The notes under the pieces are model-generated. The model was not told the origin of the DNA and ran no database searches. It worked only from the letters and a program-made list of their open reading frames with translations. Shown here piece after piece: positions 8,214-12,900 of a stretch of 64,000 nt of DNA. This stretch comes from the human T2T-CHM13v2.0 reference genome, Homo sapiens: contig CP068257.2 of assembly GCA_009914755.4 (NCBI GenBank), forward strand, positions 28,224,001 to 28,288,000. Reading direction: 5' to 3'. Within the stretch, counting starts at the first letter, position 1; each line of letters begins with the position of its first letter. The position numbers and the translations under genes were made by a program.

Positions 8214-9365
8214 AGAATTTTTACATGTTTAATTGTTTTTAATTGCTTTCATTTTTTTTTTAAAGGAAGCACATGAAACTGCACCTGCTATTACCTCTGG
8301 GATGTGGAATGGAAGTTAGAAACAAAATTTCTACTTTTCAATTTAGCCCATTAGTTACTGTTTGACATTTTCACAATGAGCATTATTTTTATTATTAACA
8401 ATAAATCACAGTCTGGAAACTTGGCCATGGTAGTGGTGGGTAAAGATGGGGGACTTTTGGATCTAAAATTGGGAAGTGAAAACAAAAGAAGTGGGGATGA
8501 CACTTCTGATGAACTGAGCAAGTACAAAATAATGAAGACGTCAAAGATTACGGCATGTCATTAAAAAGCATGTTGAAATAACAGTATGGCACACAAAATT
8601 CAAATGATGTTTTGAAGTGTTATTCTTGCAAAAGAAAACAAATTTTGAGCTTTGTATTCAAAATTGGTTCTGACATTTCTTGTCACAAAAACTCTAGGTA
8701 TATATAGAGTAGAGAAAAACAAATTTCATCAAACAAAGTACACTTGAATATCTACGTGGCCTTTTGAGTCCTGCACTCAGTTTGGCTCTTTCAAATGTCT
8801 AATTCATTCAGCATGTGAGCCTCACATATTTGTTTGAACCCAGTGGATGGTCAATAGATTTGTATTCTGTCCTTTATGTCATCATTAATAAATTACATAC
8901 AAAACATTTGGGAACAAAAAGTCTAATGACATTTTTAGTATACGCTCAATAACCTTTTGGAAAACACTCCATGTCTCTTGTTTCTGGGTGCAGGTAGTGA
9001 CTTTTAAATCTGTTAGAATTTAGAAGCATTGAAGACCACTTAGCTTGCCTCTTAGTGTGGAGCTGCTTTAGTGAATTAGAATAAAAGATCCTTAGAGACA
9101 ACAGCTATAAAGCTGTTTCACAATGAAAGCAAAAGAAGCGATACGACAGATGAATAAAGAAAACATAAACTAAGCTTAAAAAATAGAACAAAGTGAAGAA
9201 AAATAAAGAAAGGAGAAGATGAAGAGGACCAGGCAGAAAAGGGATAGGAGGGCTGAAGAGAGGAGGAAGGGACAGAAACTCCTAGTGTGTACCTAAGTTA
9301 CCCCTAGAAAAGTGAATCTGTAGCTTCATTATTCCATCACCACGACTTCAGAAAAAGCTACGAAG

Positions 9366-9640
9366 GGCCAGGCACGGTGGCTCATGCCTGTAATCCCAGC
9401 ACTTTGGGAGACTGAGGCAGTTGAATCACCTGAGGGCGGGAGTTCAAGACCAGCCTAACCAACATGGAGAAACCCCATCTCTACTAAAAATACAGAATTA
9501 GCCAGGCATGGTGGCGCATGCCTATAATCCCAGGTACTTGGGAAGCTGAGGCAGGAGAATCTCTTGAACCCGAGAAGCAGAGGTTGCAGTGAGCCTAGAT
9601 CATGCCACTGCGCTCCAGCCTGGGCAATAAGAGTGAAACT
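9366..9640 (+). mobile_element. Alu SINE (AluS-like), plus orientation, inserted into arm S' of the inverted duplication, with an approximately 14-bp TSD
   Basis: ggccaggcacggtggctcatgcctgtaatcccagcactttgggagactgaggcag...gcagtgagcctagatcatgccactgcgctccagcctgggcaataagagtgaaactatgtc. The flanking target-site duplication is gaaaaagctacgaagg / gaaagagctaggaag. The uninterrupted homologous site is present in arm S at about 10365-10395. Confidence 0.9.
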
Positions 9641-9925
9641 ATGTCGAAAGAAGAAAGAAAGAAAGAAAGAATGAAAGAAAGAAAGAAAGAAAGAAGGAAG
9701 GAAAGAGAGAAAGAGAGAGAAAGAGAGAAAGAGAGAGAAAGAGAGAGAGAGAGAGAGAGAGAAAGAAAGAGAGAGAAAGAGAGAAAGAGAGAGAAAGAGA
9801 GAGAGAAAGAGAGAGAAAATGAGAGAGAAAAAGAGAGAAAAAGAGGAGAGAAGGAGAGAAAGAAAGAAAGAAAAGACAGAAAGAAAGGAAGGAAGGAAGG
9901 AAGGAAGGGAAGGAGAAAGAAAGAG
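9640..9925 (+). repeat. Compound purine microsatellite (GAAA)n/(GA)n/(GGAA)n, about 285 bp: an expanded Alu poly-A tail
   Basis: gaaagaaagaaagaaagaatgaaagaaag...agagagagagagagagag...ggaaggaaggaaggaagg, directly 3' of the Alu at 9366-9640. Confidence 0.95.
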
Positions 9926-12900
9926 CTAGGAAGTAGGTGATGACGGGAGAGAAAGTAAGTTTCAAAAAAGAAGGTATGGGAAAAGGCATCTGAAAAGATC
10001 TGTGAAAACAACAAAACTGGAAGAAAAGACACCAAAGCATTGTATAGCTTCCAGAATTTTTCCCCAGTGAACATCGATGTTTTCCTTTAAGGTGATTTCT
10101 GAGGAATGTTGCTGACCACACAGATGATGACAACTGTATACCAGGCTCTCTTGTCTGAGACATATTTACTTTTTGTTTTGCTGTATTTTAAATAAGTTTT
10201 TATGCACTTACCTTAGAAACTGTCATTTAAAAACAAACAAACCTCTGTCTTTTCAGGCCCCATTTTGAGTAGAATCCTGTTAGAAGCCTGTTACAAAGCG
10301 GTATAATGTGGATGGATCTGTGATGCATTCTTTTTCCCATACCCTTCTTCTTGAAACCTTTTTTCTCTCCCTTCATCACCTACTTCCTGGCTTTTTTAGA
10401 AATCCTGATGATACAATAATGAAGCTGTAGGATCACTTTTCTAGGGGTAATTTAGGTACACACTAGGAGTTTCTGTCCCTTCCTCCTCTCTTCAGCCCTC
10501 CTATCTCTTTCCTGCCTGGTCCTCCTCATCTTCGCCTGTCTTTCTTTTTTCTTCACTTTGTTCTATTTTTTAAGCTTAGTTTCTGTTTCCTTTATTCACC
10601 TGTAATGCATTGCTTCTTTTGCTATCATTGTCAGGAAACAGCTTTGAAAAGGTTTCAAGAAGGAAGATATGGGAAAAGGAATGCACCACAGATCCGTCCA
10701 CATTACACCTGCTTTCTAATAGGATTCCAACAATATTCTACTCAAAATGAGGCCTGAAAAAACAGAGGTTTGTTGTTTGTTTTTAAATGATGGTTTCCAT
10801 GGTAAGTCCATAAAATCAAATTTAAAATACAGTGAAATGAAAAGTAAATATGTCTTAAACAAGACAGCCTGGCATACAGTTTTCATCACCTGTGTGGGCA
10901 GCAAGATCCCCCAGAAATCACCTTTCAAGGGAAAACATTGACGTTCACTTGGGGAAAATTCTGGAAGCTATAAGATGCTTTGGTATCTTTTCTTCCAGTT
11001 TTGTTGTTTTCACAGACCTTTTCCGACTCCTGAGTCCACTAAAGTTTCTCTACAAATAAATATTTTTACTGGTCTTTATTTTTCTTTATATCCATTTTTA
11101 TGGAGCATATATTTCTACCCTGGTACTTGCCAAGGCAGTCCTGGAGGGCCATTAAATTATGCAACCGGGACCTAAATACATACCAGGTTAAGCCTAGTGA
11201 GAAATGCCATCCAATATTTCTGATCTCATTTCTCCCCTTTATTCATTTACTCTTTCTTTCAACAAAACTGAAGCTCTGCTAAGTGGTATGGAAGAAAAGA
11301 GTTTGCTCTGGAATAATGAAATAGGAAAGCATTGATATTGATTGTGGTGGTGGGAAGAACTGAGATACAGTGTGTGGATAAGTTCTTACTACCGGCATGA
11401 TATTTAAGCTGAAAATTAAAACAGAGTCTTTTATTCCATAGGAACTAGGAGTTACTTGAGAAAGTTTTGAGTCTGGTAGTAAATTGGGAAGCAGTGTGTA
11501 TCCTAGCGTATAGCACTCTTAAGAGTAAACCCCTGCCCATGTTAAAAGCAGAATAGAGTTCTATATGGACATATAAAATACATGTACATCTTTTTCTGCT
11601 AATAAAAATAACTCATATCCATTGTAGGAAAACATAAACAAACATTAAAAAATCTATATTCAAACCCTCCACAGCTAGTAACCACTAACTTAATTACACT
11701 GTATTTTCTCACAATCTATTTTCAAGGCATATTTCCCCCCATAACTGAGTATAATTTATATATTTTTATGTAATATAGTGTAAACTTCACTTTTGCAGAT
11801 CCTTTAAAACTAGGACTGTCAGGTTGAGCAAATAAACATACAGAACATCCGGATCCATTTCAATTTCAGATAAATAATGAATAATTGTTTAGTTTATGTA
11901 TGTTCCTCATAATATTTGGGACATGCTTACACTAAAAAGTTACTCATTGTTTATCTGAAATTCAAATGCAATTGAGCATTGTGTATTTTACCTAGCAACC
12001 CTGTTTTAAACACATAATAGTGTATTAAATTTCTTCATATATTAGATTACATTTATATATCATGTTGTGTACATATCCATTCCCTCTGTTAGAAATACAC
12101 ATTTCTGTTTTTTTAATTGAGATAAGTATTGCAACATTTTATATGATTTTCCCAAGAGAAATGACTAAAAATGAAATGATTAGGCCCAACAGCAGGAACA
12201 AGATTTTCAATTTGCGATATCAATTGCCAGTTTATATTGCCTTTATCTTTCCTTTGTTAGCATTATACTTACTTTGTACAAATCTAGCCAGTTTAGAAGA
12301 TGAACAATAGAACACTTATTTTACACTAAATAAAATGTTTTACATTTTAATAATTTTATTAAATTATTATAAATAATACATATAACATATTTTATTAAAT
12401 ACATTACATTTAATAACTTTATGTTAAAATACGCCATTTCATTGTATACATTTTAAAGCAATCAGCAAATTTCTGTTTCACAACTCAGACCTATTGCATC
12501 TTCTCTGATCTGTAAGTTTCCATTTGATAGACCATCGTTTGTCTATTCAGAGCTTCTTCATACTTCACTTAGCTTTTTCCTAAATCCAGTCTAGTTTTCT
12601 GTCAACCTCCACAGTAGAACCAGAATTATATTTATAATATAAATCTGATCATATTCATCTATTCTTTAAATGCTTCTTTGACCTGCCTCCTTCCACCCCA
12701 CTAACAATGGGCTCACGGTTAAATGCCTTTGAGACGTAAACTTTTGGGTACCTGGCTGATCTAGTTTACCGGCTTACCTCCTGCCCTTCACCTATCACAT
12801 TTCAGTCACATGAACTGACTTGCAGCTCTCAAGTTCTGGCCGTGTCACAGATCAAGGTGCCTTGCAAATGCTTCTGACTCTGCCTGAAAGCACTTCTACC

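What the first reader, a model, noticed from the sequence alone, without database searches (positions are those of the whole stretch)
9060..11035. Interleaved 'A' B' A B' inverted duplication of about 2 kb (pseudoknot-like topology) with motif-bearing junctions and a later Alu insertion
Two different segments each occur twice, in opposite orientation, in an interleaved order. S' (about 9060-9362 plus 9925-9955) lies upstream, then B' (about 9956-10345), then S (about 10345-10650), then B (about 10650-11030). A simple palindrome would read B' S' S B; here the order is S' B' S B. Each inverted pair would therefore have to hairpin across the other. B' sits exactly at the centre of the S'/S palindrome, and S sits exactly at the centre of the B'/B palindrome. 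Every junction carries the same ~28-bp motif, ggtttcaagaaggaagatatgggaaaagg. It is in plus orientation at 9957 and 10650, and reverse-complemented at about 10318-10345. B-type units therefore look like about 390-bp elements with about 28-bp TIRs. The arms are about 85-90% identical, so the event is old. One arm (S') later received an AluS plus (GAAA)n insertion with a clean TSD, while the partner arm S retains the empty site. The geometry fits either a replication template-switch rearrangement of the FoSTeS/MMBIR type, or a TIR-bounded foldback or MITE-like element that inserted into an inverted copy of its own flank. I cannot assign it to a named repeat family.
Basis: seen in the sequence. 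Interest (0 to 1): 0.6.

Follow-up and report, generated by a model that had tools for sequence, protein, structure and literature searches.

The report
Sequence split by its own inverted copy
A roughly 670-bp stretch of human non-coding DNA was interrupted long ago by a full-length upside-down copy of itself, most likely through a DNA-copying error in which the polymerase switched template twice; it is a tidy, old, mid-sized example of a known mutation type, not a new mobile element.

Summary
Two inverted-repeat pairs interleave: 9109-9365 plus 9920-9986 against 10330-10645 (about 87% identity), and 9984-10362 against 10647-11031 (85.7%; BLAST E 1e-76 and 1e-110). The pairs abut with no leftover bases.

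The "28-bp motif" (M1 9959-9986 +, M2 10330-10357 -, M3 10652-10679 +) is only the overlap of the two pairs. The reverse complement of 9980-10650 aligns end to end, collinearly, with the reconstituted outer copy (671 against 671 nt, 87.3% identity, flat through M).

The structure is therefore one unit, X-M-Y', split at M by its own inverted copy, with M as a direct repeat on either side. Two new junctions suffice. In the four-point template-switch scheme the order is 3-4-1-2: "4 before 1", and inter-strand. An 8-nt match, GGAAAAGG/CCTTTTCC, lies at or within a few bases of junction 1.

Both pairs have the same divergence (Fisher p = 0.67). An AluS with a (GAAA)n tail inserted later into one arm, with a 14-bp target-site duplication, and the partner arm keeps the empty site.

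The TIR/MITE reading fails. There is no target-site duplication, B lacks a right TIR, and no other copy was found. No orthologue or Dfam check was possible.

Verdict: a new member of a known kind, of modest interest.

The parts
9109..9365 (+). X, first part: the left portion of the outer (ancestral-orientation) copy of unit N. It ends at the Alu insertion site.
   Evidence: Pairs with 10645-10383 at 87.5%. Homology stops at 9109; upstream ACAGCTAT does not align.
9352..9365 (+). Left copy of the Alu target-site duplication (AAAAAGCTACGAAG).
   Evidence: Direct reading. It matches 9920-9933 at 12 of 14 positions. The single empty-site copy lies in the partner arm (alignment).
9366..9645 (+). 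AluS-type element inserted into arm X after the duplication.
   Evidence: Alignment to an AluSx consensus recalled from memory gives 14.3% divergence and 8.2% at non-CpG sites. It is closer to AluSx than to AluY or AluJb. It is absent from the partner arm.
9646..9919 (+). Alu A-tail expanded into a (GAAA)n / (AGAGAGAAAG)n microsatellite.
   Evidence: TRF: period 4 with 67.5 copies, and period 10 with 18 copies.
9920..9958 (+). X, last part (the right Alu target-site duplication is 9920-9933), running without a break into M1.
   Evidence: 9920-9989 pairs with 10327-10396 at 83% (alignment).
9959..9986 (+). M1: first forward copy of the triplicated segment (28-nt core; homology to M2 also includes about 8 nt upstream). 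It ends with GGAAAAGG.
   Evidence: The three M copies differ in a star-like way, by 2, 3 and 1 private changes from the majority sequence (my count from the sequences).
9987..10645 (-). Inner inverted copy of the whole unit N (Y 9987-10329, M2 10330-10357, X' 10358-10645). Junction 1 is at about 9986/9987 and junction 2 at 10645/10646.
   Evidence: The reverse complement of 9980-10650 aligns end to end and collinearly with [9109-9365]+[9934-9987]+[10681-11040]: 671 against 671 nt, 87.3% identity, 13 gap columns. Alignment score is 465, against 3 for the forward orientation and 2.5 +/- 1.3 for shuffles.
10330..10357 (-). M2: the inverted copy of M, internal to the inner copy. It lies where the two inverted pairs overlap.
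   Evidence: It is contiguous with Y on one side and X' on the other, at unchanged identity.
10646..10679 (+). M3: second forward copy of M (core 10652-10679). It is a direct repeat of M1, flanks the inverted insert and is contiguous with Y'.
   Evidence: (D4).
10680..11031 (+). Y': the right portion of the outer copy of unit N.
   Evidence: 10647-11031 pairs with 10362-9984 at 85.7%.
11017..11024 (+). CCTTTTCC, complementary to the GGAAAAGG that ends M. It is the candidate microhomology for the first template switch.
   Evidence: Direct reading and the alignments. Its exact register is ambiguous, because the inner copy has 12 extra nt (CATCTGAAAAGA, 9987-9998) there.

Best explanation
An ancestral unique sequence, head-X-M-Y'-tail (unit N, about 671 bp), underwent a single replicative or repair-synthesis error with two template switches.

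1. A nascent strand that had copied X and M left its template at the end of M (point 1).
2. It annealed to the complementary strand about 350 nt ahead, at the end of Y' (point 2), at or next to an 8-nt match, GGAAAAGG/CCTTTTCC.
3. It copied that strand backwards across the whole unit, making Y-M'-X', as far as the start of X (point 3).
4. It rejoined the original template at the start of M (point 4), with little or no microhomology, and continued through M and Y'.

Point 4 lies about 30 nt upstream of point 1. M therefore ends up three times (forward, inverted, forward), and X and Y twice each (one copy inverted). This gives the interleaved layout X M Y M' X' M Y'. In the four-point nomenclature the order is 3-4-1-2. 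It is inter-strand, because point 2 lies ahead of point 1, and it is of the '4 before 1' class. A staggered double-strand break that was filled in and then repaired by a templated inverted insertion would give the same product.

Later, an AluS inserted into the outer X arm, and its A-tail grew into a 274-bp (GAAA)n/(GA)n array. The arms have since diverged by about 13-15%. The block is most likely a neutral relic. Its only predicted activity is that single strands or transcripts could fold into either of two mutually exclusive long hairpins.

Shown: the anatomy, the collinearity, the tiling, the equal divergence and the relative order of the Alu insertion. Inferred: the ancestral state, the direction and number of switches, and neutrality.
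For: - **Collinear inverted copy.** The reverse complement of the inner segment aligns end to end with the reconstituted outer copy: 671 against 671 nt, 87.3% identity, flat across M. Controls score 3 against 465.
- **Exact tiling.** Pair 1's left arm ends at about 9986-9989, where pair 2's left arm begins (9984). Pair 1's right arm ends at 10645 and M3 begins at 10646. A single two-switch event produces this automatically.
- **Only two junctions are novel.** These are M1|Y and X'|M3. Every other adjacency (X-M, M-Y) is present in two copies.
- **Equal age.** The X pair is 86.6% identical and the Y pair 85.4% (Fisher p = 0.67). The three M copies differ in a star-like way (sequences).
- **Microhomology.** GGAAAAGG ends M1, and CCTTTTCC lies at 11017-11024, at the far end of Y'.
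[quoted passage not shown] Point 2 lying ahead of point 1 implies inter-strand switching (PMC7954356). Type 3-1-4-2 is described as creating two inverted repeats (PMC5453318). From the model I derive its product as X Y m' X' Y', which has the same interleaved topology without the M repeats.
- **Not an abundant repeat.** X, Y and M have no other copy in the 64-kb window.
- **Not an assembly artefact.** Arms that differ by 13-15% cannot arise from misassembly.
Against: - No outgroup or orthologous locus could be obtained, so the ancestral arrangement is inferred by parsimony only.
- RepeatMasker and Dfam were not available, so X-M-Y' could belong to a low-copy repeat family.
- The inverted tract (about 660 nt) is five times longer than the longest short-range event in the great-ape catalogue (128 nt; PMC7954356).
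- Returning upstream of the departure point requires re-opening newly made duplex (PMC5453318).
- Junction 1 is not a clean single-copy microhomology junction, because the inner copy has 12 extra nt there.
- Junction 2 shows no microhomology.
- A human-derived metagenome contig (L001) loses similarity to this locus at 10652, within a few bases of junction 2. This could hint at a second M-bearing locus.
- The Alu's non-CpG divergence (8.2%, 19 of 232 sites) is slightly above half the arm-to-arm divergence (about 6-7%), although the Alu must be the younger event. This is within error and rests on a consensus recalled from memory.
Confidence: 0.6

Rival explanations
1. Several separate or serial events rather than one two-switch event. 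There are two versions. (a) The middle segment Y-M'-X' is ancestral, and two independent template switches (types 3-2-1-4 and 1-4-3-2) each added an inverted copy of neighbouring sequence on one side. (b) A serial fold-back with three switches, starting from head-X-M-Y-tail.
For: Both versions reproduce the order X M Y M' X' M Y' (my derivation from the anatomy). Version (a) uses only the event types most often seen in human-chimp comparisons (PMC5453318). Version (b) would explain the CCTTTTCC at the end of Y' as true copying of the end of M.
Against: Version (a) needs four novel junctions. It also needs two coincidences of a few bases each: each insertion point must coincide with the boundary of the segment copied by the other event, so that the arms tile exactly. 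Version (b) needs three junctions. Equal divergence of the two pairs (p = 0.67) requires the events to be near-simultaneous.
Confidence: 0.15
2. A transposable-element origin. Either M-Y-M' is an unclassified MITE or foldback-like element of about 400 bp with about 28-bp TIRs, whose ends or aberrant transposition produced the flanking inverted duplication, or N is a low-copy repeat and one copy inserted in reverse into another copy of its own family.
For: B' (9959-10357) is bounded by M and M'. M3 begins with A-rich AAAAGG, which resembles an L1-endonuclease target (this is my reading, from memory). The metagenome contig L001 loses similarity to the locus at the left edge of M3.
Against: - B' has no target-site duplication. 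Its flanks are inverted copies over about 300 bp, not direct repeats.
- B has no right TIR beyond 8 nt.
- Identity is no higher in M than elsewhere, and it continues across both edges of M.
- A 28-35-bp 'target-site duplication' is too long for hAT, Tc1, piggyBac or LTR elements (from memory), and the insert has no poly(A) tail next to it.
- There is no other copy in the 64-kb window.
- Scans of metagenome, genome and viral contigs found nothing with the Y 24-mer or X 27-mer. The M motif gave only one human-derived contig, identical to this locus, and one chance microbial match.
- Self-nesting of a rare family within a 670-bp target is improbable.
Confidence: 0.12
3. The whole 9.1-11.0 kb block is one copy of a known composite repeat whose consensus already has this internal arrangement. 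The arrangement would then be a property of the family, not a locus-specific event.
For: None was obtained. It cannot be excluded, because no repeat library was available.
Against: There is no second copy in the window. No match was found in any collection scanned, apart from one contig identical to this locus. Rfam gave no hit. Arms of equal divergence and an exact two-junction reconstruction fit a local event.
Confidence: 0.06

Closest known systems
Short-range template-switch mutations of the four-point model (Loytynoja & Goldman 2017, PMC5453318; Walker et al. 2021, PMC7954356), specifically the '4 before 1' class, and type 3-1-4-2
   Same: The product equals F1 + reverse complement (F2) + F3 of a single local reference. 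F2 spans both the departure and the return points, which creates two interleaved inverted repeats as in type 3-1-4-2. The return point lies upstream of the departure point, so the 4-to-1 segment (M) is left as a direct repeat around what looks like one large insertion. Point 2 lies ahead of point 1, which implies that the opposite strand was the template.
   Different: - Scale: F2 is about 660 nt, against a median of 12 and a maximum of 128 nt in the great-ape gold-standard set.
- The event is old (arms about 13-15% diverged), so the ancestral state is not observed directly.
- The 2017 study saw no 4-before-1 events at all.
DUP-TRP/INV-DUP complex genomic rearrangements (Carvalho et al. 2011, cited from memory; Grochowski et al. 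2024, PMC11293582)
   Same: Two template switches generate two junctions and a duplication-triplication-duplication copy-number pattern whose middle triplicated copy is inverted. Synthesis runs in the reverse direction between the switches. The second junction forms by microhomology or end joining.
   Different: - In those rearrangements the duplicated flanks are in direct orientation. Here the second copies of X and Y are inverted along with M.
[quoted passage not shown] Here there is at most an 8-nt match.
- The scale there is kb to Mb, against 0.67 kb here.
[quoted passage not shown]
   Same: [quoted passage not shown]
   Different: ODIRA triplicates the entire segment between two short inverted repeats, needs an origin inside that segment, and passes through an extrachromosomal intermediate. 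Here only about 30 bp is triplicated.
MITE-like or MER-type non-autonomous DNA transposons and foldback elements
   Same: One unit (9959-10357) is bounded by a 28-nt inverted repeat.
   Different: There is no target-site duplication, the second unit lacks one terminus, the 'TIR' is merely the overlap of two longer inverted pairs, and no other copies were detected.

Membership tests
Template-switch mutation (four-point model) | The descendant sequence can be rebuilt as F1 + reverse complement of a contiguous local fragment (2->3) + F3. | tested here: met
   The inner segment is a collinear, full-length inverted copy of the reconstituted outer unit. Only two adjacencies are novel.
Template-switch mutation (four-point model) | The ancestral (outgroup) sequence lacks the inverted fragment. 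| not testable with these tools
   No primate or mammalian genome is available. Scans of metagenome, genome and viral contigs, and ORF look-ups, gave no orthologue.
Template-switch mutation, '4 before 1' class | A direct repeat of the 4-to-1 segment flanks the inverted insert. | tested here: met
   M1 (9959-9986) and M3 (10652-10679) are direct repeats, identical at 25 of 28 positions, and they flank 9987-10645. The criterion comes from PMC7954356.
MMBIR/FoSTeS | Microhomology at the breakpoint junctions. | tested here: inconclusive
   Junction 1 is at or within a few bases of an 8-nt match, GGAAAAGG/CCTTTTCC, but the register is blurred by 12 extra nt. Junction 2 has 0-1 nt of microhomology.
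DUP-TRP/INV-DUP | A duplication-triplication-duplication copy-number pattern with the middle triplicated copy inverted, and two junctions. | tested here: met
   X occurs twice, M three times (M2 inverted) and Y twice, with two junctions.
DUP-TRP/INV-DUP | The duplicated segments are in direct orientation, and junction 1 is mediated by a pre-existing inverted low-copy-repeat pair. | tested here: not met
   The second copies of X and Y are inverted. The reconstructed unit contains no pre-existing inverted repeat beyond 8 nt.
TIR DNA transposon / MITE | Terminal inverted repeats at both ends of each copy. | tested here: not met
   B' has M and M'. B has M on the left only, and its right end shares 8 nt with M'.
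TIR DNA transposon / MITE | A target-site duplication (direct repeat) flanks the element. | tested here: not met
   The flanks of B' are reverse complements of each other over about 300 bp. No direct repeat was seen at the ends of B.
TIR DNA transposon / MITE | Multiple dispersed copies in the genome. | tested here: inconclusive
   None lies in the 64-kb window. The collection scans are nearly blind to human DNA. One ambiguous contig, L001, was found.
Alu (for the insert at 9366-9645) | A dimeric 7SL-derived body of about 280 bp, an A-rich tail, a flanking target-site duplication, and an empty site in a paralogous or orthologous copy. | tested here: met
   Two Alu monomer arms (D2). Alignment to an AluSx consensus recalled from memory. 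A 14-bp target-site duplication, with the empty site in the partner arm.

The most novel reading that the evidence does not exclude
M is the terminus of an unclassified, very low-copy TIR element. A transposase-made break at that terminus triggered an aberrant, sister-strand-templated repair, which duplicated the element together with its flank in inverted orientation. The metagenome contig L001, whose identity to this locus stops at the left edge of M3, would then be reporting a second M-bearing site.
Probability: 0.07. Interest if true: 0.5.

Novelty: new member of a known kind. Interest (0 to 1): 0.27.

Why it matters
If the single-event reading is right, this is a fixed example tens of millions of years old. 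It is an inter-strand, '4 before 1' template switch with an inverted tract of about 660 nt. That size falls between the short-range template-switch mutations catalogued in apes (128 nt or less) and the kb-to-Mb DUP-TRP/INV-DUP rearrangements of genomic disorders.

It shows that one event can create two interleaved long inverted repeats. It also shows that a motif at every junction, which looks like a TIR, can be a by-product of the switch geometry. That is a useful caution for de novo repeat annotation.

It is not expected to have a biological function.

Tried and rejected
- **Searches for orthologues or paralogues.**
  - Exact scans with a Y 24-mer (metagenome and genome contigs) and an X 27-mer (genome contigs) gave 0 hits.
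  - A degenerate M motif gave 2 hits in metagenome contigs and 0 in viral contigs.
  - L002 is a chance match inside a microbial coding contig.
  - L001 is a contig at 1.18x coverage that contains an Alu. It carries 139 nt identical to 10652-10790 between unrelated flanks, and is probably a chimeric assembly of human contaminant reads.
- **ORF searches.** Exact look-ups of two ORFs from the region found nothing. Two homology searches with ORFs from Y' and M3-Y' found nothing. Human non-coding ORFs are evidently not in that collection.
- **Rfam.** A scan of the whole window gave no hits, so a structured-RNA gene was dropped.
- **Chance or assembly artefact.** Rejected on E-values of 1e-76 and 1e-110 and on 13-15% arm divergence.
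- **Tandem duplication followed by inversions.** This does not reproduce the order without extra steps (my derivation).
- **L1-mediated (TPRT) insertion of an antisense transcript.** There is no poly(A) next to either M copy, and the insertion would have to land in its own source.
- **An exon at 10652-10790, to explain L001.** AG precedes 10652, but no GT follows 10790. The GGTAAGT at about 10800 is not used.

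
Full report
**1. The observation**

The window is human-type DNA. It holds Alu copies and an L1 ORF2 fragment with an RVT_1 reverse-transcriptase domain.

Self-comparison of 8500-11600 shows two strong reverse-complement diagonals:
- 9984-10362 against 11031-10647: 85.7% over 385 columns, E 3.5e-110.
- 9109-9365 against 10645-10383: 87.5% over 263 columns, E 1.2e-76.

The repeat finder adds 9920-9989 against 10327-10396 (83%). This carries the first pair across a 554-bp insertion.

The order along the + strand is X (9109-9365, then 9920-9958), M1, Y, M2 (inverted), X', M3, Y'.

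The motif occurs three times at up to 3 mismatches and nowhere else in 64 kb, with 0 expected from shuffles.

Three corrections apply. S' begins at 9109, not 9060. The motif is absent from the two outer ends. The right end of B carries only CCTTTTCC (11017-11024).

**2. Anatomy**

The three-way alignment of the M copies with their flanks shows the following:
- M1 and M2 share their X-side flank.
- M2 and M3 share their Y-side flank.
- M1 and M3 share only M itself.

M is therefore the overlap of two long inverted pairs, not a separate terminal repeat.

I removed the Alu, its tail and one target-site-duplication copy, and kept a single M. This joins [9109-9365]+[9934-9987]+[10681-11040] into a 671-nt 'outer' unit. 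The reverse complement of 9980-10650, also 671 nt, aligns with it end to end and collinearly. Identity is 87.3% with 13 gap columns, and it is flat across M at 78-98% per 50 columns. The alignment scores 465, against 3 for the forward orientation and 2.5 +/- 1.3 for shuffles.

The block is therefore one unit, N = X-M-Y', interrupted at M by a complete inverted copy of itself, with M as a direct repeat on either side.

Only two adjacencies are unique: M1|Y at about 9986/9987 and X'|M3 at 10645/10646. No base between 9109 and 11031 is left unassigned apart from the Alu insertion.

**3. Age and order of events**

- The X pair is 86.6% identical and the Y pair 85.4%, which are indistinguishable (Fisher p = 0.67; K2P 0.13-0.17).
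- The three M copies differ from their majority sequence by 2, 3 and 1 private changes, a star pattern (sequences).
- The Alu (9366-9645) is closest to AluS. Divergence is 14.3% overall and 8.2% at non-CpG sites, measured against a consensus I recalled from memory.
- Its tail is now a 274-bp (GAAA)n/(AGAGAGAAAG)n array.
- It is flanked by AAAAAGCTACGAAG and AAAGAGCTAGGAAG. The partner arm holds the single, unfilled AAAAAGCCAGGAAG. The Alu therefore arrived after the duplication.
- Per-arm divergence of about 6-8% and the AluS identity both point to roughly the AluS era, some tens of millions of years ago. This date is an inference.

**4. Mechanism**

The simplest history is one event with two template switches on an ancestral head-X-M-Y'-tail:

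1. The nascent strand leaves its template after M (point 1).
2. It lands on the complementary strand at the end of Y' (point 2).
3. It copies back to the start of X (point 3).
4. It returns to the start of M (point 4).

This gives X twice, M three times with the middle copy inverted, and Y twice. It also gives exact tiling and two junctions.

In the four-point model the order is 3-4-1-2.
- Loytynoja & Goldman describe type 3-1-4-2 as creating two inverted repeats. Deriving its product from the model gives X Y m' X' Y', the same interleaved topology without the M repeats. They saw no '4 before 1' types among short events (PMC5453318).
- Walker et al. later found many '4 before 1' events. They noted that such events look like a single large insertion flanked by a direct repeat of the 4-to-1 segment, and that they require re-opening of new duplex in a BIR-like manner. 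They also noted that point 2 lying ahead of point 1 implies an inter-strand switch (PMC7954356).

M1/M3 is exactly such a direct repeat.

The junction details are as follows:
- At junction 1, M ends in GGAAAAGG, and the far end of Y' carries its complement CCTTTTCC. This fits microhomology-primed switching.
- The inner copy has 12 extra nt there (CATCTGAAAAGA), so the exact register is ambiguous.
- Junction 2 has no microhomology, which is compatible with end joining. The same is proposed for the second junction of DUP-TRP/INV-DUP (PMC11293582).

**5. Rivals**

- **Two separate switches around an ancestral Y-M'-X'.** This uses only common event types. It needs four junctions and two base-level coincidences to produce the exact tiling. 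It also needs near-simultaneity to explain the equal divergence.
- **A three-switch serial fold-back.** This is possible, and it would explain CCTTTTCC as copied sequence.
- **A TIR or MITE origin.** The evidence against it:
  - There is no target-site duplication.
  - One unit lacks a terminus.
  - M is no better conserved than its surroundings.
  - M1/M3 would be a 28-35-bp 'target-site duplication'.
  - No other copies were detected.
- **A family consensus with this arrangement built in.** This could not be tested.

**6. What could not be done**

No primate genome or repeat library is available here. Scans of metagenome, genome and viral contigs, ORF look-ups and ORF homology searches yielded no orthologue or paralogue.

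The one human-derived hit, L001, carries 139 nt identical to 10652-10790 between unrelated flanks. It is probably a chimeric low-coverage assembly. Its left breakpoint lies within a few bases of junction 2, and I cannot explain that with certainty.

**7. Likely consequence**

Folding 9100-11045 as RNA gives a minimum-free-energy structure built on X/X' plus M1/M2 for the + strand. For the - strand it is built on Y/Y' plus M2/M3. Duplex energies are -431 and -493 kcal/mol.

In a nested fold the two long helices exclude each other, as the 'pseudoknot-like' label implies. If the region is transcribed it would be a long imperfect double-stranded RNA, like inverted Alu pairs. Nothing here suggests selection for that.

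**8. Verdict**

This is a new member of a known kind and of modest interest.

Noticed in passing
L001 726-864 (ERZ1034103 NODE-3144), matching window 10652-10790: A 1227-nt metagenome contig at 1.18x coverage, which contains an Alu, carries 139 nt that are 100% identical to M3 plus the first 110 nt of Y'. Similarity is lost abruptly on both sides. The left breakpoint lies within a few bases of junction 2. AG precedes 10652 in the window, but no GT follows 10790. It is probably a chimera of human contaminant reads. A second M-bearing locus or a spliced transcript is not excluded.
   Followed up: partly
window 9646-9919: The Alu poly(A) tail has expanded into a 274-bp compound purine microsatellite: (GAAA)n grading into (AGAGAGAAAG)n and (GGAA)n. 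It gives this 2-kb bin the strongest purine skew among the 2-kb bins of the first 40 kb (GC skew +0.21, AT skew +0.24).
   Followed up: partly
window 9100-11045, both strands: Predicted RNA folds are strand-dependent. The + strand minimum-free-energy fold uses the X/X' helix (251+24 pairs). The - strand uses Y/Y' (314+30 pairs). The two helices cannot coexist in a nested fold.
   Followed up: partly
window 9179-9219 and the partner arm at about 10530-10570: A 20-nt imperfect tandem duplication (AAAAATAGAACAAAGAGAAG, two copies) lies inside X. It is present in both arms, so it predates the inverted duplication.
   Followed up: no
window 42575-44944 (+): A decayed L1 ORF2: several ORF fragments on the + strand, one with an RVT_1 reverse-transcriptase domain (E 2.7e-26). 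The A-rich strand skew of 42-46 kb fits a sense-strand L1.
   Followed up: partly
window 5-50, 3247-3477, 3997-4147, 8131-8207, 13711-13916, 34782-34898, 47677-47816: Further Alu copies or fragments, detected through the Alu segment of L001. The one at 47.3-47.8 kb adjoins a T-rich run that was read as an ORF.
   Followed up: no
window 31663-31715: A weak match (77%) to the (AAAC)n-like stretch of Y (10228-10245). This is low-complexity similarity, not a further copy.
   Followed up: yes
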